Positions 2,251-56,848 of a DNA stretch of 64,000 nucleotides are shown here, one piece after another. Below the pieces are notes generated by a model. The model saw only the letters and a program-made list of their open reading frames with translations. It ran no database searches and was not told the DNA's origin. Source of the stretch: a virus; IMG/VR virus record IMGVR_UViG_3300013132_000031, positions 32,001 through 96,000 of that record. One strand, given 5' to 3'. The stretch's first letter is position 1. The number at the start of each line of letters is the position of its first letter. The position numbers were made by a program, and so were the translations under genes.

Positions 2251-4653
2251 TTATCCCTTGTATGTTTTCCATTGGTTGGTGAGAGCAAAAATGCTTTCAC
2301 GAACTTTTTCCATGTCGCCGTCACCGTCTAAATCAGCTTGTTTTTTGCCGGCTGCTTTGGCTTTCAGTACATTGTGTGCAAACTTGTTGCCTTCTTCCAT
2401 GTCGGCTTCGTCAACTTCTTTTTTGGCTTCGCGGATGCCGGCCATTTCACGCATGCGCTGAATGCTTTCTTTCACGCTGTCTTCTTCGTTCATATCATCA
2501 GCAGCGTCTTTCATGCTTTCTTTTTTGTTGCCATCTTTGTCCATGTCCAAGAAGTCAGGCTTGGCTGCTTCTGCCAGTCCAGCCATTTCTATCATTCTAC
2601 GCAAGGCATCTTCGTCTTGTGTGTGAACTGCTGTGTTGGGAATGGTAGTTTGTCCATCACCAGCAACATCTGTCTTGGGCTTGTTAATGCCACCTGCGTA
2701 TTGCAGTGCATCACTGGAAGTTTGAGTGTTGGTAGGATAGTCTGGAGCATTTTCATCCACTGCTTCGGCCATGCCACTGTGCATGTCATGATCATGACCG
2801 CCCACACCAGCTGATTTCAGCATCATGGCCAATTTCAAGGCGTCTTCGTCTGTGGCTGTGACTGTGAGGCTTTTGCCGCCTTCGGTTGAGTTACTCATAT
2901 TGATGCTCATGCTTTCGGCAATCATGGTTTCCAATTCACGATTCATTGAGTCGTAAATGCCTTTGCCAAAACTCATGCCTCCAGATTTGGCTGGTTTGAC
3001 ATCTACTTTGCCTTTGTCTAATGTGGTACTGATTCTACCGGTGCTGGAACTGGTTGAAGTTTTTCCTGGTCCAGTTTGTGTAGTAGTCAATCTACCGTCT
3101 TTAGAGTTCTCATCAACTTCTTTCTTGTCGACCTTGTCTGGCAGGCCTTTGTGCTTGGTCTTGGCAAAGTCTTCAGTGTCTTTTGGCTTCATGGTCCGGG
3201 CAACTTTTTTCAGCTCTTTGCTGGCGCCTTTGATCTTTTCACCTTTTTGCATGGCATGTGCCATGCCCATGAACTTTTGTTGTTGCTTGCTGACAGCTTT
3301 TTCAGCAATGGGTTCTTGATCATTGCCTTGTGCTGCCATGTAATCACGTGCGGTGTCCAGGTAATCCATGGCCTTGTTGATCTTGCTCTGCACCCATTCT
3401 GGCAAGTTGTCGTCAGCGTCAATGATGCTTTGCAGTTCGTTGGCTGCTGATTCAATGGTGTCAATGTCATCAAGAGCCATGTCGCCTTCGCGATCGTATT
3501 CGCCTTTTTCTGCTGGATCGTCTTCACCTTCCCGGGTCATCAACTTGGATTTTCTCTGAAAAACTTTTGCCTTGCTGCTGACATTTTTGGAACCTTCAGG
3601 ACGACCAGCTTTGGTCTGCTTTTGTTTTTTGTTGCCTTCGTCATCGGTTTCAGGATCCACACTGAGACCTTGATCATCTGTACGACGTGTCACAACACGG
3701 CCTGTGGCTGTGTGTTTGATGTCATGCTTGTGACCACGTTCAACTGAACCAACCTTGGGTGCATCTTTTCTTGGTGACTTGTAGTCAAATGCGTTGTCTT
3801 CATCCATCTCAGCGTCACGACCTCGACCGCCACCCAGGGCACTGCGCATGGCTTCGGCAGCCACATCGCCTAGCATTTCGTCAACTTCTTTTTTGGCGCC
3901 GGCAATCTTGTCGGCAAAAGTGATTTTGTCGGCAGGTGGTGCCAGTTTGGCAAATGACTTTTGCTTGGCAGTCATCGGAGCACCGGCTTCAGGCAAGTTG
4001 GGTTCTGCATGGGTGCCACGTGCGGCTTTGATGCTGCCTTTGAGACTGGAGATTTGATCTCTTGATGGCATGCCTTTTCTTGGTCCACGATCTAATATGT
4101 TATTTTTTATTCCTGAGCGACCAATACCTTGTCCTCTTTTTAACGGGTCAGTACTGGGAAATTCGCCTCCACCTATTTTGCGTTTTCTACCAGCATAGTC
4201 ATCGGGTTTTGGATTATAGTAGGCATCATCCATATCAGGACCGTACGTGTAGTCTGGTGGTTCCTGGGTGTACAACTTGTCTTTGTACTTGGGGGCGCGG
4301 TACTTGGCTGCTTCTGTGGTTTTTTGTTCAGGTTTCTTGTCTGTTTCCTTGACGGGTCTGCCTTGCTCAGCAGCCTTGCGCTTATAGGCTGGAATGTTGA
4401 CGGGGTTAGTAGGGTCCAGATCCTTTAAACGATCTTCGATACCTTCATCGTACTTGTCGTATTTTTTTCTAATGGGATCAAGAGCTTTGCCTTCGCGACC
4501 AGCCTTGGCCAATGCTTCCATGCCTTGTTTGCCATACTTTTCATAGCCCTTGGCAGCACGACTCATGTCACGCTCATTTAGTTGTTGATGTGTGACTTCG
4601 GGTGTGGCACGAATGCTGTCTAGTTTTTTATTTAAATCGTAAAAGAAACTCAT
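2251..4653 (-). CDS. Large charged modular protein, putative prohead-processed internal protein (DUF3008-like segment, DxDxDG loops)
   Basis: 800 aa, K/E/D-rich; AVSKQQQKFMG...DFAKTKHKGLP resembles DUF3008; DMDKDG and DLDGDG loops; many hydrophobic-x-E sites. Confidence 0.65.
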   Translation of the reverse strand: MSFFYDLNKKLDSIRATPEVTHQQLNERDMSRAAKGYEKYGKQGMEALAKAGREGKALDPIRKKYDKYDEGIEDRLKDLDPTNPVNIPAYKRKAAEQGRPVKETDKKPEQKTTEAAKYRAPKYKDKLYTQEPPDYTYGPDMDDAYYNPKPDDYAGRKRKIGGGEFPSTDPLKRGQGIGRSGIKNNILDRGPRKGMPSRDQISSLKGSIKAARGTHAEPNLPEAGAPMTAKQKSFAKLAPPADKITFADKIAGAKKEVDEMLGDVAAEAMRSALGGGRGRDAEMDEDNAFDYKSPRKDAPKVGSVERGHKHDIKHTATGRVVTRRTDDQGLSVDPETDDEGNKKQKQTKAGRPEGSKNVSSKAKVFQRKSKLMTREGEDDPAEKGEYDREGDMALDDIDTIESAANELQSIIDADDNLPEWVQSKINKAMDYLDTARDYMAAQGNDQEPIAEKAVSKQQQKFMGMAHAMQKGEKIKGASKELKKVARTMKPKDTEDFAKTKHKGLPDKVDKKEVDENSKDGRLTTTQTGPGKTSTSSSTGRISTTLDKGKVDVKPAKSGGMSFGKGIYDSMNRELETMIAESMSINMSNSTEGGKSLTVTATDEDALKLAMMLKSAGVGGHDHDMHSGMAEAVDENAPDYPTNTQTSSDALQYAGGINKPKTDVAGDGQTTIPNTAVHTQDEDALRRMIEMAGLAEAAKPDFLDMDKDGNKKESMKDAADDMNEEDSVKESIQRMREMAGIREAKKEVDEADMEEGNKFAHNVLKAKAAGKKQADLDGDGDMEKVRESIFALTNQWKTYKG

Positions 4654-4659
4654 TTTGTA

Positions 4660-5268
4660 TTATCCTCGGGGTTGTGCGCCAGTGCTTGGCTTGGGTGGAC
4701 GTTTGATATTGCTCATTGGACTCTTGTTGCCCGTTGGAATATCATTTGTGGTTCGGGCTGCAGGTGTTCGACCACCAGCCACTGTGAAATCTGTACGGTA
4801 TGCGTTTTTCAACACAGCATGATCGTATGGACCGGTAGCATAGTCTTTCTTCAGGGCTCGCTGTTCAGCATCGAGCGCAGGATAATCAGTGTCAGTCAAC
4901 AGGTCTTTGTTTTCTGCTTCAACCTTGTTGGCCTCGTCAACCAGGCCGTCAACATAATTTTGTGTTTGCATCACAATGTGATTGGGATCAAAGCCCAACA
5001 ATTGTGCCAGTTGTTTAATCTGTGGCTCAATGGCTGGATACTTGAAACTTACATCAAACATGGACACACTGTCATTGGGATTGTTGGGAAAGTCAGTCAG
5101 CACTTTTTGTATGGGTGTGGTTTTTACGTCGCCCATGCTCACTGGATCAAATTGATCCAGTTTTTGTTTGAGATCACGAATCAACTCCGCAGACGGTTTG
5201 CCCAGAAGTTTAATACGATAATCGTAAGTGCGCTCACTTTCGGCTAGGTATTGTGCAAATTTTTTCAT
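4660..5268 (-). CDS. Hypothetical putative head protein
   Basis: N-terminal MKKFAQYLAE resembles the T4 internal-protein targeting sequence; late promoter at 5286-5291. Confidence 0.6.
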   Translation of the reverse strand: MKKFAQYLAESERTYDYRIKLLGKPSAELIRDLKQKLDQFDPVSMGDVKTTPIQKVLTDFPNNPNDSVSMFDVSFKYPAIEPQIKQLAQLLGFDPNHIVMQTQNYVDGLVDEANKVEAENKDLLTDTDYPALDAEQRALKKDYATGPYDHAVLKNAYRTDFTVAGGRTPAARTTNDIPTGNKSPMSNIKRPPKPSTGAQPRG

Positions 5269-35458: not shown

Positions 35459-36241
35459 TTAGGAAGTGACGTTATCAACAATAGCTAGATCCAGCAAGTT
35501 TTGTTGACCTGTTGATACACTGCCAGTGTTGGCAGAGCCTGTGGTTCCTGACTTGATCACTGTGCCTTCGTCAGTGAAGAAGTTGGTCACATATCGTTTG
35601 TCCGCAATCACTGAAGTGGCTGCATAGGTTGACCCGCCGGTCCAGTCCAACAAGAACTTGTTGGTCAGCTTGCTGACGGTGGTAGCGGTACTATCACCTG
35701 TGGTAAATGTGATGGCCATGAGTCCAGCAGCAGGTGTCACATCGTCATCCAGCACACACACGCCCACGCTGTTGGCTGTTCCTGAGCCTGCACCGCCCAC
35801 TGAAGTGGCTGTGAATATGGTGCCCACACCAAAGTTGGCAGGTGCACCTGCGGCTGTCCAAGCCGTGGTACCCACAGATGTTATTTGATAGGCCTGACCT
35901 ACCACAAATGAACCATCGTTAACACCAGTGACGTCACCTACCAAGTACTTGTGACTGCCTTTTTGGCGGATGATATAGCCCTGTGCCACACCAATGCCTG
36001 AACCATCAGGTGCAGCAATGTTGACTGTGACATCAACTCTGGGATTGGTTGCAGAAGGTGCATCAGTGGGTGCTGCACCGCCTACCACACCCAGATATTC
36101 AGTGGTGTTGAGTGTGTTGGTAGTGTTGACTACTGGTGCTGTGAGTGACCCAAAGTTGGGAAAACCCAGATCCACGCTAACGCTGGCGCCACCGTTGCCT
36201 GATCCGGTTGAAGTTTTTTGTATTTTTAGAGGACGTCCCAT
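35459..36241 (-). CDS. Virion structural protein (MGRPLK type)
   Basis: MGRPLK start, GYIIRQKGSHKYLV motif, strong AAGGAG RBS, own late promoter and terminator. Confidence 0.65.
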   Translation of the reverse strand: MGRPLKIQKTSTGSGNGGASVSVDLGFPNFGSLTAPVVNTTNTLNTTEYLGVVGGAAPTDAPSATNPRVDVTVNIAAPDGSGIGVAQGYIIRQKGSHKYLVGDVTGVNDGSFVVGQAYQITSVGTTAWTAAGAPANFGVGTIFTATSVGGAGSGTANSVGVCVLDDDVTPAAGLMAITFTTGDSTATTVSKLTNKFLLDWTGGSTYAATSVIADKRYVTNFFTDEGTVIKSGTTGSANTGSVSTGQQNLLDLAIVDNVTS

Positions 36242-36334
36242 TTTGTTTCTCCTTAAAGAAGTCCGATCGGAGTTCTAGTCCGTACGCGGTGGGTAGAACC
36301 GCATAAAACGCAGAATTGCGTTGACAAGTATTTA
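36242..36334 (-). promoter_or_regulatory. Late promoter plus structured 5' leader (three hairpins, possible kissing loop)
   Basis: TAAATA at 36329-36334; stems at 36307-36322, 36283-36305 and 36268-36282. Confidence 0.6.
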
Positions 36335-52746: not shown

Positions 52747-52770
52747 TTGTATACTGTAAAAAGAGCTTGT

Positions 52771-53808
52771 ATGAATCAAAAAATATGTGTTACTAGTTGG
52801 CGCAGCATGGGATGCACGTTTATTGACTGGAGTATTCATTTTTTATCTGGACAAACTAGATATTACAATGCCAGTGCAAATGATTTTATAGAGTTAAGCC
52901 AAAATCCAATCAACAACATAAACGCCCACGGGCACAATAAAAATCATCCACTGGGATATGCTGAAACAAAAAAATGTTTGGAAATTTTTGACAATCTAAC
53001 AGACCAGGCCATTTGTTCAATGTATGCTGCCTGGTTGCCGCTTGATAGTGGCGCCAATATTATCAACGTTGGTATTGAACAACTGCCTGAGTCCAATATG
53101 ATGACACAAGTTCAACAAACCATTGCTGACGACTACAACAAGATCTTTGAACTATGTTATAAAACTAATACAAAGATAATATATGTTGCACCAGATGATA
53201 GAATGCACCTTTATCATCAATCCATTAGATCTCACAGTAGATTCATGACCAGGCCAGACCAACCAAATTCACCTAAAGAACTCAGTGATGAAATGCAGCA
53301 AGTGTTCTTTCAAAACAGTTTATCTCGTTGGCAAGATTTAAATTTAACCAACGTTTGGGACATCAGAGAACGCATGGCATTGGATAGCAGGCCATTTGCT
53401 GCCCACAAAAGTGACACCAAAATCCTATATCCCCATCATTGGGTAAGTTGTTTGAGTTTGTGGACCCGAACAGAAGAATCTATAGCAAACATTTTAAAAT
53501 ATCTTGACTTAGAAATTGATGCCAAAAGATTAGAACAATGGTTGCCTATCTGCAGACAATGGCAAAAAATGCAAACAGACATACTTGAGTTTTGTTACAA
53601 TCAGCCACACATTGTTGATGCTATTGTTAATAATTTGGATTTCAGTATTGACCTAACATTTGATCAAGAAGTTATAATTCAGCATTGCTTGATTTATCAA
53701 CATGGACTGAATCTAAAAACTTGGCAATTAAAAAAATTCCCATCAAACACACAGGAACTACACAAATTGTTAGAGCCTAACATACACCCAGTTCCGGTGA
53801 TTTATTAA
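52771..53808 (+). CDS. Hypothetical sulfotransferase-like protein (paralogue of 59348..60238)
   Basis: N-terminal MGCTFIDW, NAH motif and C-terminal FPSNTQELHKLL shared with the paralogue; function uncertain. Confidence 0.45.
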   Translation: MNQKICVTSWRSMGCTFIDWSIHFLSGQTRYYNASANDFIELSQNPINNINAHGHNKNHPLGYAETKKCLEIFDNLTDQAICSMYAAWLPLDSGANIINVGIEQLPESNMMTQVQQTIADDYNKIFELCYKTNTKIIYVAPDDRMHLYHQSIRSHSRFMTRPDQPNSPKELSDEMQQVFFQNSLSRWQDLNLTNVWDIRERMALDSRPFAAHKSDTKILYPHHWVSCLSLWTRTEESIANILKYLDLEIDAKRLEQWLPICRQWQKMQTDILEFCYNQPHIVDAIVNNLDFSIDLTFDQEVIIQHCLIYQHGLNLKTWQLKKFPSNTQELHKLLEPNIHPVPVIY

Positions 53809-54270
53809 AGATCTCTAAGAGATCTGTTGATTTCGCTGTGCTCATCAACGTATTGTTTTTTCTAGCGCGAAGCGACCAAGTATTCATGTAGATTGTTTTA
53901 GTCAGACGGAACCGTTTTGCGCGGTTCCATCTGTGTCTTCATGTGAGTTGAATCAGCCAAGACATTGGAAGTAGGTAATTTTTTATACACCGTATGCTAA
54001 AGGACTCTGTGCTTTTCCTTCCTACCACGATACGCTAGTGCGCTCTAAACCTCGTTCCTAGTGTTTAGATGTTTATAGCCGGTGTCTTCGTATGCTAACA
54101 TTCATACTATATCAATGCGTTGGCCCTATTGTTCTAGCCTCAAACTCGCTTCCCCTTCAGGATAGTGGGATTTACCCACGGGAGTGCATCAATATGTCAC
54201 GTGTCCGGTTTATTCCCCGGTTTTTCCACAGCGGTATTGCAAACTGGCCCGCCAACCTTGGGTGTTAGTT
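53808..54270 (-). ncRNA. Large structured non-coding RNA, probably ROOL-like
   Basis: 390 nt ORF-free gap with at least 7 hairpins and a long-range helix; G-U pairing favours the - strand. The core ACAGAGUCCUUUA..GGUGUAU..UUCCAAUGUCUUGGCUGAU resembles ROOL as recalled from memory, not searched. Confidence 0.6.
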
Positions 54271-54703
54271 GATTTGTAATTTTATCTTTGATGTGTGAGC
54301 CATGCACACGTACTTGTATATGGCCGTTGTAATAATCTGTTGATTCCAATACTCGCCTTGCAAATTGTTCTCTTGCCTCAATGTAACTGCATTCAGACTT
54401 GCTTTTGCAATAGTAAAGTATTTCTCTGGAGAAGTTTTTGGTGCCTAAAGTGATTACGTCTGCGGTTAATTCTGGGCTTGACCCGTAGTACTCACGCCAG
54501 TCTGAATCGACTTTGGTTCGTATCTTTTTCCGCTTTTTGATGCCGTTCTTTTGTTTTACTGTCTTGTACGTTGTTTTTGAAAATTTCGCTAATTTTTTGC
54601 CTATGTACCGGCGTCCAGTGAGATTATTTGTGATCTGATAAACAAATCCCACACATTCTTCGGGCAGTGTCTCAACTGGGGTGTCTTGATAAAGCCATGT
54701 CAT
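54197..54703 (-). CDS. Small GIY-YIG endonuclease (T4 EndoII/DenA-like size)
   Basis: GFVYQITN..YIGKK, YYGSS, FSREIL, E..EQ, YYNG. Confidence 0.85.
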   Translation of the reverse strand: MTWLYQDTPVETLPEECVGFVYQITNNLTGRRYIGKKLAKFSKTTYKTVKQKNGIKKRKKIRTKVDSDWREYYGSSPELTADVITLGTKNFSREILYYCKSKSECSYIEAREQFARRVLESTDYYNGHIQVRVHGSHIKDKITNQLTPKVGGPVCNTAVEKPGNKPDT

Positions 54704-54766
54704 GTGAGTTTTGAGAAATTGCCTTTCGTGCTATAGTTATGCCTTTGAGAGTGATTATATAGAATT

Positions 54767-56848
54767 TTATGCTAGATCAATATCTGTGCTGTAACTGGTA
54801 AATCCGTTTTCTTTTACTACCCGGAGTATGTTCTCCACACGCCCGGCTAATTCGTCTCTATGGCTCACAAGCCAAATGCTCTTGTGACGCTCACGAGTCA
54901 TCTTCTTCAACAGCGCCAAACTGGCTTCTACACCTTGCGTGTCTAGTCCAGAGTCAATCATCTCATCAATAAACAAGATGTTGATGGGGTGATACAAACT
55001 TTCCCATACATCACGGAATGCCCAACTCATGCTAAGGATCAATCGATTACGCTCACCACGACTCAAGTTGTCAAAGTCAAGTTCTCGACCCAGTTCCTCA
55101 ATGCTCACACTCAAGTCGTTTTGAAACTTCACTGTGTGCGGCAATCCAATGCGATCCAAATAGTGTGTGAGTCGGGCATTCAAGTAACTTAGATTCTGAT
55201 CAATAATTTTTTTACGAACAAAACTATCTTTGCTGGTCAACAGTTTGAGCAAGAACTCTTGATGGTCTTGCACTTTGGTCAGTTCGTTAATTTTATTGTA
55301 GTCAACCACTTGCAAGGCCTGTTGTTGCATGTCCTCAATCTGTTCGCTGTAGGGATCAGTTTCGGCATGCTTGCTGGTGATATGTTGTAGCAAGTTATTG
55401 ACTTGTGTGGAGTGTTTGATGGCCTGTGCTTCTGTGTCGTAGTGTGTGACAGGAGGAGCACCCAATTCCACAGGCACATAACCTGCAAGTTGTTCAGCAT
55501 AAGGATCTGCTTCTGCTGACTTGTCTGCAATCTTTTGCTGTAAATTTTCCACCTCACTGCTGTGGCGAATGGCTTCTGCTTCGGTCTTGTAGTATGTTGT
55601 GGACCGAGCGCCCAGTTCGCCCAATGCTCGAAGTGCATCAGTATTTTCCATCCATTGACCATTGGTGGCCAAGGCTTGTAGTGCAGACTCCTGCAGTGCT
55701 TTACGCTTGGTTTCCAGCACAGTTTCGTGGGCACCGTCATGAAACTCTTGACCACAAGCATAACACTTGTGTGCTTCTAGTTCAGCAATCTCTGCCCGGA
55801 GTTTATCTGAAGTCTTTTGTTCTCGTGCTTCATCTGACACACAACGAGCAATGAGTTTTTCAAGTTCAGCAATGTCCTTGGCCCGTTGATTGTATGCGGC
55901 CAAGTCTTGGTGTGCTTGTAGTTCTGCTGAGATATTAATGTGACTGAGTTTGGTGTAACTGTCTTGCAATGCAGCAACTTCTTTGGCCTGTGTTTGTTGC
56001 CAAGCGGTTTGATATGCCAGCAGTCGATCATGTGCATCTGCTTGTTTTTTACGTTCGTTCCACAAGGCAAGTTCTTTGTGAGCCAACAACTCTACTTCAA
56101 TGTTGACTCGTGTCAAGTCATCGTATTGCCCCACAAGATACGCCAAGTCGCTGTCGTATTTCTTTTGCCACAGCCCCTGTCTACGGCACAGGCTTTCAAT
56201 TTGTTCTTCAATGCGCTTGTTGGCTTCTTGAACAGCCCGCACCCTAAACTCTTCTGAGGTAATAGCGTCCTTGGTGGCCTTGTTGAGTTCTTTGATACGA
56301 TCAGCACGTTCACTCAATACTGTAATACCCAACAACTGCTCAATGATGGTTCGCTGTTCGTTGGCTTTCAAACTTAAGAATGGTTCGGTATATGTGTTCA
56401 GCGCCAAGATGTGCTTGAACATGTCATGACTCATGCCAAACACACGCTCAATGGCATCCTGTGTTTCACGGCTGTCACCCTGTGCATCGTCTGTGGCAGT
56501 TTGTTCTTCACTGTCCACATAGAAACGTAGGACATTGGGTTTGCGTCCACGTTCAATCTTGTATGTTTTACCGTTGACGGCAAAGTCCAAGCTGACCAAC
56601 ATGCCCTTGCCATTGGTTTTGTTTACTAGATTGTCCTTGCGAATGTTGCTGAGTGCTTGTCCATACATGGCATAACTCAGGGCATTGATGATTGTGGTCT
56701 TGCCTGTGCCATTGCGTGATCCGTCACCACCCAGGTCCAAATTCTCACCTAACACCAGCGTAAGGTCTTGACGATCAAAGTCAATGCCTTGCGTGGCCGC
56801 ACCCACACTCATGAAGTTCTTAACAGTGAGATTTTTAATTTGAATCAT
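54767..56848 (-). CDS. gp46: Recombination ATPase (Rad50/SbcC-like)
   Basis: KNFMSVG, NGTGKTT Walker A, CYAC zinc hook, LSRGE signature, LFIDE Walker B, VSH. Confidence 0.95.
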   Translation of the reverse strand: MIQIKNLTVKNFMSVGAATQGIDFDRQDLTLVLGENLDLGGDGSRNGTGKTTIINALSYAMYGQALSNIRKDNLVNKTNGKGMLVSLDFAVNGKTYKIERGRKPNVLRFYVDSEEQTATDDAQGDSRETQDAIERVFGMSHDMFKHILALNTYTEPFLSLKANEQRTIIEQLLGITVLSERADRIKELNKATKDAITSEEFRVRAVQEANKRIEEQIESLCRRQGLWQKKYDSDLAYLVGQYDDLTRVNIEVELLAHKELALWNERKKQADAHDRLLAYQTAWQQTQAKEVAALQDSYTKLSHINISAELQAHQDLAAYNQRAKDIAELEKLIARCVSDEAREQKTSDKLRAEIAELEAHKCYACGQEFHDGAHETVLETKRKALQESALQALATNGQWMENTDALRALGELGARSTTYYKTEAEAIRHSSEVENLQQKIADKSAEADPYAEQLAGYVPVELGAPPVTHYDTEAQAIKHSTQVNNLLQHITSKHAETDPYSEQIEDMQQQALQVVDYNKINELTKVQDHQEFLLKLLTSKDSFVRKKIIDQNLSYLNARLTHYLDRIGLPHTVKFQNDLSVSIEELGRELDFDNLSRGERNRLILSMSWAFRDVWESLYHPINILFIDEMIDSGLDTQGVEASLALLKKMTRERHKSIWLVSHRDELAGRVENILRVVKENGFTSYSTDIDLA

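What the first reader, a model, noticed from the sequence alone, without database searches (positions are those of the whole stretch)
53808..54270. ~450-nt ornate structured RNA (ROOL-like) overlapping the 3' end of a GIY-YIG nuclease gene
Seen: this is the only long ORF-free stretch in an otherwise densely packed window, and it is full of stems at 53809-53825, 53826-53849, 53903-53933, 54044-54069, about 54090-54107, 54165-54179 and 54205-54220. There is also a long-range GUUGGC/GCCAAC helix (54251-54256 with 54119-54124) and competing GGUAGG/GGAAGG vs CCUACUUCC pairings that could form a pseudoknot. The 53903-53933 stem has a C-A mismatch on + but a U-G wobble on -, so the RNA is minus-strand and co-oriented with the nuclease, whose last ~25 codons run into it. 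Knowledge: the core ACAGAGUCCUUUAGCAUACGGUGUAU...UUCCAAUGUCUUGGCUGAU resembles, from memory, ROOL RNA, a large phage-associated ncRNA of unknown function. Inference: this is either a divergent ROOL-class RNA in a T4-like lytic phage or a new nuclease-associated RNA, possibly forming an RNP with the GIY-YIG protein, which has a very basic KQKNGIKKRKKIRTK insert.
Basis: partly seen in the sequence, partly recalled or inferred. Interest (0 to 1): 0.85.

Follow-up and report, generated by a model that had tools for sequence, protein, structure and literature searches.

The report
Structured phage RNA beside GIY-YIG nuclease
The gene-free stretch encodes a real, intricately folded non-coding RNA of about 460 bases that hundreds of uncultured lake phages carry just behind a small homing-nuclease gene; it is not ROOL but an uncatalogued sibling of the orphan Polynucleobacter-1 RNA motif, and what it does is still unknown.

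Summary
Window 54268 to about 53805 (minus strand) is a ~464-nt structured RNA that ends in an intrinsic terminator. Among 51 close relatives, 26 of 75 predicted pairs show compensatory changes. The 3' domain covaries across 48 far more divergent sequences (score 0.474 against 0.154 for shuffles).

It is not ROOL: no Rfam family matches the window, even at E<=10. Sibling RNAs at the same position share its 3' domain, and their 5' domain is Rfam RF01718 (Polynucleobacter-1, 110-114 bits). Its 2010 describers already noted that it lies behind homologues of cyanophage gene PSSM2_218, shown here to be this GIY-YIG family.

The "overlap" with the nuclease gene is a local accident. In 79 relatives whose 3' end is on the contig the ORF stops at 142-144 aa; the window copy lost that stop.

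Linkage is tight: nuclease to RNA 66/66, RNA to nuclease 76/81. It is not obligatory. The RNA also occurs alone, and once in a 192-kb contig with no such nuclease. Cultured-phage homologues of the nuclease have no RNA.

Best reading: an autonomous mobile RNA gene with a Seg-type homing endonuclease parked beside it, as T4 SegB sits among tRNA genes. Two 3'-domain words that are nearly always identical remain unexplained. This scan has noted the family before on other genomes.

The parts
53805..54268 (-). Whole structured non-coding RNA, about 464 nt. The conserved 5' start is CUAACAC at 54268; the 3' end lies just after the terminator hairpin.
   Evidence: Conservation among relatives starts at CUAACAC and ends at the terminator. 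24 of 101 pairs and 26 of 75 pairs show compensatory changes. There is no Rfam match.
54109..54253 (-). 5' domain. P1 hairpin: 54253-54249 with 54234-54230. P2: 54220-54217 with 54208-54205. An outer helix, 54195-54186 with 54118-54109, encloses ACUC/GAGU (54185-54182 with 54147-54144) and three hairpins: 54179-54175 with 54169-54165, 54162-54160 with 54153-54151, and 54139-54136 with 54125-54122.
   Evidence: All helices are 99-100% paired in 51 relatives. Compensatory pairs number 1, 3, 3, 0, 4, 2 and 3, in the order listed. Further P1 variants are GGCCC/GGGCU, GGUGG/CCACU and GGCAG/CUGCU. The CACUAUCC...GGA motif inside nested helices recalls the 3' half of RF01718, but the Rfam model does not score it.
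53971..54107 (-). Central body specific to this RNA type. Hairpin 54107-54103 with 54094-54090, with a UGUUAG loop. Hairpin 54069-54063 with 54050-54044, with the invariant loop CUAGGAACGAG. A variable hairpin at about 54042-54033. GUAGG/CCUAC: 54025-54021 with 53975-53971. AGGA/UCCU: 54019-54016 with 54004-54001.
   Evidence: One search gives 0, 3, 4, 1 and 2 compensatory pairs, in the order listed. One search confirms GUAGG/CCUAC in 51 of 51. The loop motif CTAGGAACGAGGTNTA retrieved 118 IMG/VR stretches.
53937..53948 (-). Direct repeat R1: ACUC-ACA-UGA-AG.
   Evidence: R1 and R2 are identical at all 5 variable positions in 150 of 177 distinct sequences, which show 13 different states. No third covarying column was found.
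53904..53932 (-). Hairpin between the two repeats (53932-53922 with 53914-53904), followed by the conserved UGAC.
   Evidence: 7 of 11 pairs change on both sides across RNA types, for example GGAACCG, UUCACCG and UUGCCC.
53882..53893 (-). Direct repeat R2: AUCU-ACA-UGA-AU. Its UCUAC (53892-53888) is predicted to pair with GUGGA at 54229-54225.
   Evidence: predict this long-range helix: 100% paired, but invariant within this type. One cross-type compensatory change is consistent with it: UGUGGA with ACA against UCUGGA with AGA.
53826..53849 (-). Penultimate hairpin, GUUGAU/AUCAAC, with the conserved loop GAGC..AGCGAA.
   Evidence: 5 of 6 stem pairs change on both sides.
53809..53825 (.). Terminator hairpin that closes the RNA. 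It also stands directly after the stop codon of the convergent plus-strand gene 52747-53808.
   Evidence: 6 of 7 pairs change on both sides. The scan flags it as terminator-like on the plus strand. U's follow it on the minus strand.
54278..54703 (-). Conserved 142-codon GIY-YIG nuclease gene, SegE-type catalytic domain only.
   Evidence: Pfam PF19835, E = 3.7e-32, residues 3-129. PHROG 447. The ORF is 142 aa (144 in six loci) in 79 relatives whose 3' end is on the contig.
54197..54277 (-). Read-through tail peculiar to this copy: 26 codons plus a stop that run into the RNA. The canonical stop position 54277-54275 reads ACA.
   Evidence: Compensatory P1 changes alter the would-be peptide, so the stretch is under RNA constraint, not coding constraint.
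54704..54745 (-). Conserved leader of the nuclease cassette, containing TAACTATA and two AGGCA words.
   Evidence: Homology to relatives begins about 42 nt upstream of the ATG, whatever the upstream gene is.

Best explanation
Window 54268 to about 53805 (minus strand) is a gene for a stable, compactly folded non-coding RNA of about 464 nt. It is read in the same direction as the preceding GIY-YIG gene, probably on the same transcript, and is closed by an intrinsic terminator.

It belongs to a large family of freshwater-phage RNAs. Members share a 3' domain: repeat R1, a hairpin, UGAC, repeat R2, a second hairpin with a GAGC..AGCGAA loop, then the terminator. Their 5' and central bodies are exchangeable. 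One body type is the catalogued Polynucleobacter-1 motif; the window has a different, uncatalogued body.

The RNA is most likely an autonomous gene that acts in trans. The 142-aa SegE-like GIY-YIG protein is most likely a free-standing homing endonuclease lodged at its 5' flank. It would cut nuclease-free alleles in co-infecting phages, so that repair copies the nuclease and the adjoining RNA region. This is how T4 SegB promotes inheritance of the T4 tRNA/small-RNA cluster.

Shown here: the RNA structure, the strand, the family, the linkage statistics, the modular boundaries and the RNA-only alleles.
Inferred: co-transcription, homing activity, and action in trans.
Unknown: the RNA's molecular job.

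The nearly always identical repeats R1 and R2 point to two equivalent sites. These could be read by a two-fold partner, used as alternative pairing partners of one 5' element, or paired with each other around tandem G-A pairs.
For: Structure:
- Compensatory changes in 24 of 101 pairs and 26 of 75 pairs.
- 3' domain across types: 89.7% of cells paired, 19 of 26 pairs changed on both sides, covariation score 0.474 against 0.154 +/- 0.010 for shuffles and at most 0.115 for slid partners.

Family:
- nhmmer links the window's 3' domain to the other body types.
- Type D RNAs at the same position score 110-114 bits on RF01718.
- Weinberg et al. 2010 (PMC2864571, supplement) place that motif downstream of a gene family 'with possible homology to PSSM2_218'. 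That protein is 36% identical to the window nuclease, E = 5e-20.

The nuclease is a separate module:
- Homology between loci breaks exactly at the stop codon, 54278.
- A nuclease 98% identical to the window's sits before a different RNA body type (L011, type D), and other near-identical copies before type A.
- One or two ORFs, 0.3-1.7 kb, lie between nuclease and RNA in 20 of 66 loci.

The RNA stands alone:
- 5 of 81 RNA-first loci lack the nuclease.
- L086 carries an intact RF01718-type RNA between two other genes.
- About 12 loci in an unrelated phage backbone, with adjacent terminase and portal genes, lack the nuclease. Seven more there have a 55%-identical nuclease downstream of the RNA.
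- A 192-kb contig has the RNA but no homologue of the nuclease.

The nuclease stands alone:
- Homologues in cultured phages C48C1, ACP17, B23, P-HM2 and P-SSM2 have at most about 110 nt of non-coding sequence behind them.

Mobility:
- 48 clusters of downstream neighbour genes among about 290 loci.

Transcription hint:
- Metatranscriptome contigs from three studies cover the RNA, and one bridges the nuclease-RNA junction.
Against: - Linkage is stronger than a casual neighbour would show. 66 of 66 nuclease-first loci have the RNA downstream. 76 of 81 RNA-first loci have the nuclease upstream on the same strand, over 36-95% protein identity. The nuclease ORFs look intact, not decaying.
- The nuclease has no recognisable DNA-binding domain. 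How it finds a target is therefore open, and an RNA cofactor would supply an answer.
- No cleavage site, homing event or discrete transcript has been shown. The RNA-library contigs could be contaminating DNA.
- The RNA's own function is not explained.
Confidence: 0.55

Rival explanations
1. The RNA is a working partner of the nuclease, forming a ribonucleoprotein. It would supply target recognition, scaffolding or regulation for a catalytic-domain-only GIY-YIG enzyme, much as the HEARO RNA turned out to be the guide of IscB.
For: - Near-obligatory synteny on the same strand over deep divergence: 66/66 and 76/81.
- The nuclease lacks a DNA-binding domain and has a very basic internal insert.
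- The pair moves among many genomic neighbourhoods.
- There may be a single transcript.
Against: - There are RNA-only loci, and a 192-kb contig without the nuclease.
- The gene order is reversed in another phage backbone.
- Nucleases up to 98% identical to the window's precede unrelated RNA bodies and different R1/R2 states.
- Whole genes are inserted between the two.
- Homologous nucleases in cultured phages have no RNA.
- No variable guide-like segment tied to the flanking DNA was seen. The RNA's 3' end is a paired terminator and its 5' end is invariant.
Confidence: 0.2
2. The element is only a cis-acting 3' untranslated region. It would protect the nuclease mRNA from decay, end transcription at a convergent junction, or tune nuclease translation.
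For: - It always lies at the 3' end of the transcription unit and ends in a terminator that also serves the convergent gene.
- Inserted ORFs always lie upstream of it.
Against: - About 460 nt, with more than 15 conserved helices and invariant loops, is far more than a terminator or stabiliser needs.
- It is kept intact where there is no nuclease, and behind unrelated genes.
Confidence: 0.1
3. It is a ribozyme or degenerate self-splicing intron whose homing endonuclease gene has moved outside it.
For: - Homing endonucleases classically associate with group I introns.
- The RNA is large, with invariant unpaired nucleotides.
Against: - No match to the group I, group II, GIR1 or any self-cleaving ribozyme model at E<=10.
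- No interrupted host gene. The flanks are complete genes, and here the downstream gene is convergent.
Confidence: 0.05
4. It is a divergent ROOL-class RNA.
For: Only general likeness: large, ornate, phage-borne and of unknown function.
Against: No Rfam hit to ROOL, GOLLD or any other family, either at gathering thresholds or at E<=10.
Confidence: 0.01
5. It is decayed coding sequence, for example a lost C-terminal DNA-binding domain of the nuclease.
For: In the window the nuclease ORF reads 26 codons into it.
Against: - The ORF stops at 142-144 aa in the 79 relatives whose 3' end is on the contig.
- Substitutions are compensatory in stems, not codon-periodic, and they change the would-be peptide.
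- Six-frame ORFs are short and not conserved.
Confidence: 0.02

Closest known systems
Polynucleobacter-1 RNA motif (Rfam RF01718; Weinberg et al. 2010, Genome Biol 11:R31, PMC2864571)
   Same: - Sibling RNAs at the same position behind the same nuclease (L011, L086) match RF01718 at 110-114 bits, and they share the window RNA's 3' domain.
- Freshwater origin.
- The 2010 supplement already places the motif downstream of PSSM2_218-like genes. These are this GIY-YIG family.
   Different: - The window RNA itself does not score on RF01718, even at E<=10. Its 5' and central body is a different type, and only the CACUAUCC...GGA nested-helix motif looks shared.
- RF01718 is 141 nt, whereas the real RNAs are about 400-470 nt with an uncatalogued 3' domain and terminator.
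- The 2010 authors found it in no sequenced purified phage and listed it as a candidate cis-regulator.
T4 SegB, a free-standing GIY-YIG homing endonuclease in the tRNA/small-RNA gene cluster (from my own knowledge: Brok-Volchanskaya et al. 2008, NAR)
   Same: - A free-standing Seg-type GIY-YIG gene lodged beside structured RNA genes in a T4-like phage.
- The expected effect is preferential inheritance of the neighbouring RNA region.
   Different: - No cleavage or homing has been shown here.
- The nuclease is only 142 aa and lacks the C-terminal DNA-binding part of T4 Seg proteins.
- The neighbour is a single 460-nt RNA of unknown function, not tRNAs.
HEARO RNA with its HNH ORF (IscB and its omega RNA)
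   Same: A nuclease gene tightly linked to a large structured RNA, first noticed by comparative genomics in the same 2010 survey.
   Different: There the RNA carries a guide and the pair is obligatory. Here the RNA and the nuclease each occur alone, and no guide segment was found.
ROOL and GOLLD large phage-associated RNAs
   Same: Large, ornate, phage-borne RNAs without a known function.
   Different: No sequence or structure match. They are not linked to a nuclease gene.

Membership tests
ROOL (Rfam) | Match to the Rfam covariance model | tested here: not met
   cmscan of the whole window at gathering thresholds and of 53600-54800 at E<=10 gave no ROOL hit.
Polynucleobacter-1 RNA (RF01718) | Match of the window RNA to the RF01718 covariance model (gathering score 37 bits) | tested here: not met
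   No hit at E<=10. Type A loci also fail at E<=1.
Polynucleobacter-1 RNA (RF01718) | Homology to RNAs that do match RF01718 | tested here: met
   L011 and L086 score 114 and 110 bits. Their 3' domains align with the window's (nhmmer E = 6e-07 for L011, 1.5e-04 for L086) and covary with it.
Polynucleobacter-1 RNA (RF01718) | Genomic context: downstream of PSSM2_218-like genes | tested here: met
   Text of the 2010 supplement. PSSM2_218 is 36% identical to the window nuclease, E = 5e-20.
SegE-type GIY-YIG nuclease (Pfam PF19835 / PHROG 447) | GIY-YIG catalytic domain | tested here: met
   PF19835 at 111.6 bits, residues 3-129. phrog_447, E = 4.6e-37.
Free-standing homing endonuclease (T4 Seg type) | Own cassette between genes, with sporadic presence or absence among related genomes | tested here: met
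   Cassette boundaries lie about 42 nt upstream of the ATG and at the stop codon. Nuclease-free alleles of the same locus type exist: L086, L254, L318.
Free-standing homing endonuclease (T4 Seg type) | C-terminal DNA-binding domain | tested here: not met
   142 aa, with the domain covering residues 3-129 and no second Pfam domain.
Free-standing homing endonuclease (T4 Seg type) | Site-specific cleavage of the nuclease-free allele, and gene conversion | not testable with these tools
   Needs biochemistry or co-infection crosses.
RNA-guided nuclease (IscB/TnpB-like logic) | Obligatory co-occurrence of RNA and nuclease | tested here: not met
   There are RNA-only loci, and a 192-kb contig with no nuclease homologue. 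Nuclease homologues in cultured phages lack the RNA.
RNA-guided nuclease (IscB/TnpB-like logic) | A variable guide segment that matches the target or flank | tested here: inconclusive
   None is apparent at either end of the RNA. No systematic search against the flanks was made.
Group I/II intron or small ribozyme | Match to Rfam models, and an interrupted host gene | tested here: not met
   No hits. The flanking genes are complete.

The most novel reading that the evidence does not exclude
The 142-aa catalytic-domain-only GIY-YIG protein and the RNA form a ribonucleoprotein. In it the RNA, perhaps through its two nearly always identical boxes, positions or licenses the nuclease on DNA. That would make it the first RNA-dependent GIY-YIG homing system.
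Probability: 0.1. Interest if true: 0.95.

Novelty: new variant of a known kind. Interest (0 to 1): 0.55.

Why it matters
Polynucleobacter-1 has stood in Rfam since 2010 as a 141-nt orphan 'candidate cis-regulator'. The evidence here changes that picture in five ways.

- It is only one head of a 400-470-nt RNA family with a common, uncatalogued 3' domain.
- The family is carried by phages.
- It is abundant in lake viromes.
- It jumps between unrelated phage backbones.
- It is almost always escorted by a minimal GIY-YIG homing nuclease.

Large, highly conserved RNAs of this complexity have usually turned out to be ribozymes or RNP cores, so a function is worth seeking.

The two repeats give an unusually sharp and testable handle. 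They are kept letter-identical through at least 13 different states, which is a covariation pattern that base pairing does not explain. The nuclease-RNA pair is also a clean natural system for asking how homing endonucleases spread non-coding cargo.

Tried and rejected
- Rfam at gathering and permissive thresholds on the window: only freshwater-2 elsewhere in the window, nothing here.
- blastn of three RNA body types against 50,697 phage records: no match. No cultured phage is known to carry the RNA.
- ARAGORN: no tRNA or tmRNA.
- Coding hypothesis: rejected.
- A partner for the variable letters of R1/R2. Mutual information within type A finds only the other repeat. Pairing of a 5' element (UGUGGA or UCYRGA) with R2 fits types C and A2, but leaves C-A mismatches in 6 of the 23 type A sequences shown and is not kept in two type C variants. 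Unresolved.
- AGGCA words upstream of nuclease-free RNAs and upstream of the nuclease. In some loci they lie in the coding 3' end of the upstream gene, so no conclusion was drawn.
- Strict type D pattern in 185,579 prokaryote genomes: one hit, on a 3.4-kb MAG contig cut at the RNA and without the nuclease. This says little about hosts.
- Fremin et al. 2023 (PMC10690425) may list this RNA among its 10,006 candidates, but no supplement is held.
- Exhaustive helix scan for pseudoknots in this type. Candidates are 54079-54076 with 53999-53996, and 54256-54250 with 54100-54094. Support is too weak to claim them.
- Parts of the window without metatranscriptome cover carry no weight.
Full report
THE REGION. 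The window is part of a 108-kb IMG/VR record of an uncultured T4-like lake phage. On the minus strand a Rad50-like gp46 gene (54767-56848) is followed by a 168-codon ORF (54197-54703). The first 129 residues of that ORF are a SegE-type GIY-YIG domain (Pfam PF19835, E = 3.7e-32; PHROG 447). A plus-strand gene ends at 53808. The roughly 390-nt gap therefore lies between convergent genes.

- Twelve close relatives align over the whole gap. RNAalifold finds 101 pairs, 24 of them with compensatory changes.
- With 51 distinct relatives, 26 of 75 pairs are compensatory and nearly every helix is 99-100% paired.
- G-U pairs, and the U's after the last hairpin, fix the strand as minus.
It has broken pairs, no compensation, and it overlaps a covarying hairpin.
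- The would-be peptide of the read-through changes wherever the first hairpin changes in a compensatory way, so the stretch is RNA, not coding.

THE 'OVERLAP' WITH THE NUCLEASE GENE. In 79 relatives whose 3' end lies on the contig, the ORF ends after 142 codons (144 in six loci). In the window the stop position 54277-54275 reads ACA, so translation runs 26 unconserved codons into the RNA. Homology between loci breaks exactly at 54278. The RNA's conserved sequence starts at CUAACAC (54268).

WHAT FAMILY IS IT? No Rfam family matches the window, either at gathering thresholds or at E<=10. This rules out ROOL, GOLLD, introns and small ribozymes.

Behind nearly identical nuclease genes, the downstream RNA comes in several body types with little sequence similarity. 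I call them A, C (the window's type) and D. All types share a 3' domain of about 150 nt (nhmmer; alignment of 48 sequences). In order it consists of:
- repeat R1
- a hairpin
- UGAC
- repeat R2
- a linker
- a hairpin with a GAGC..AGCGAA loop
- a terminator hairpin

On that alignment 89.7% of cells pair and 19 of 26 pairs change on both sides. The covariation score is 0.474, against 0.154 +/- 0.010 for shuffles and at most 0.115 for slid partners.

The 5' domain of type D is Rfam RF01718, the Polynucleobacter-1 RNA, at 114 and 110 bits. The only paper that mentions this motif is Weinberg et al. 2010. [quoted passage not shown] PSSM2_218 is a 145-aa protein, 36% identical to the window nuclease (E = 5e-20).

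So the nuclease-RNA linkage was seen in 2010 without being recognised as a GIY-YIG gene, and the catalogued 141-nt motif is only the head of a 400-470-nt RNA. The window's body type is not detected by the Rfam model. It shares only the nested-helix motif CACUAUCC...GGA.

HOW TIGHT IS THE LINK TO THE NUCLEASE?
- From the nuclease side: all 66 loci with enough downstream sequence have the RNA's 3' domain downstream on the same strand. 46 are adjacent, and 20 have one or two ORFs in between.
- From the RNA side: I used a 3'-domain pattern that does not involve the protein. Of 81 loci with enough upstream sequence, 76 have a same-strand nuclease gene upstream, with protein identity of 36-95%.
- The pair sits next to many different neighbour genes: 48 clusters of downstream neighbours among about 290 loci.

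WHY I DO NOT READ IT AS AN OBLIGATE RNP.
- Five RNA-first loci lack the nuclease.
- L086 has an intact RF01718-type RNA between two other genes.
- In a different phage backbone, with adjacent terminase and portal genes, about a dozen loci have the window-type RNA with no nuclease. Seven more have a 55%-identical nuclease downstream of the RNA.
- A 192-kb contig that holds the RNA has no homologue of the nuclease.
- Nucleases up to 98% identical to the window's precede different RNA bodies and different R1/R2 states.
- Homologous stand-alone nucleases in cultured phages (C48C1, ACP17, B23, P-HM2, P-SSM2) have no room for an RNA behind them.
- No RNA body type matches any of 50,697 deposited phage records.

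The simplest reading is an autonomous, horizontally mobile RNA gene with a Seg-type free-standing homing endonuclease parked at its 5' flank. This is the arrangement of T4 SegB in the tRNA cluster (from my own knowledge).

The very high occupancy and the missing DNA-binding domain keep the RNP reading alive, at about 0.2.

EXPRESSION. Contigs from RNA libraries of three studies cover 53859-54268 and the nuclease gene, and one bridges the junction. These are contigs, and DNA carry-over is possible, so this is only a hint.

THE UNEXPLAINED FEATURE. R1 is CUC-NNN-U(G/A)A-N and R2 is UCU-NNN-U(G/A)A-N. They are identical at all five variable positions in 150 of 177 distinct sequences, through 13 states such as ACA-UGA-A, AGA-UGA-U, GGA-UAA-U and GCA-UAA-U. 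Part of the remainder looks like mis-registration of my search pattern.

Within type A the only column that covaries with R1 is the matching column of R2. Three partial ideas:
- The U(G/A)A-N part fits an antiparallel R1:R2 contact. Tandem G-A (or A-A) pairs would be flanked by U-A, U-G or U-U. This is inference, not tested.
- The NNN part would suit alternative pairing of both boxes with one 5' element. The evidence for that is mixed.
- It would also suit recognition by a two-fold partner.

EARLIER NOTES OF THIS SCAN. After reaching the above, I looked up earlier notes. The same RNA family has been reported on at least 18 other genomes, with the same closest-known family and the same repeated word. 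One note says the RNA also sits without a nuclease in Polynucleobacter chromosomes. I could not test that.

VERDICT. This is a real, large structured RNA. It is not ROOL. It is a new body variant of the extended Polynucleobacter-1 family. It is linked to a GIY-YIG homing nuclease but probably not dependent on it. Its function is unknown.

Noticed in passing
window 36239-36323 (-): Full-length match to Rfam freshwater-2 RNA (RF02980): 70.6 bits against a gathering score of 49.9. It lies directly upstream of an ATG.
   Followed up: no
L049:4426-4692; also L254:8718-8933, and L089 and L090 upstream of the RNA: A small ORF of about 70-90 aa with an HENH(E/D)W word and a C-terminal CxxCGGK zinc-ribbon-like motif lies directly upstream of the RNA. 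It occurs both with and without the nuclease, it overlaps the nuclease stop as ATGA, and it ends inside the RNA's first conserved bases. It has no Pfam or PHROG match.
   Followed up: partly
L254:8216-8728, L318, L253, L209, L086:6598-7110: Nuclease-free RNA loci often carry a PD-(D/E)XK phage endonuclease (Pfam PF24608; a PHROG annotated as RusA-like resolvase) one or two genes upstream of the RNA, in the gp46 neighbourhood.
   Followed up: partly
L011:4620-4726: The central part of type D RNAs, with the conserved GGUACCGGNCAACCGCC hairpin shared with type A, gives a weak sub-threshold match to Rfam cow-rumen-2 (17.9 bits, E = 0.93). It is probably chance.
   Followed up: no
window 54694-54706 and 53937-53948: The nuclease start context, AACUCAC-AUG-A, is letter-identical to repeat R1 (ACUCACAUGA) of this RNA type. 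It does not change in loci whose repeats differ, so it may be coincidence.
   Followed up: partly
window 52747-53808 (+) and L086:5609-6667 / 4019-5059: A family of about 350-aa proteins without Pfam or PHROG matches flanks the RNA in many T4-like loci. In L086 two paralogues converge on the RNA.
   Followed up: no
window 54310-54389: One metatranscriptome contig (run X20) skips 78 nt inside the nuclease gene. This is an in-frame deletion variant or an assembly artefact.
   Followed up: no
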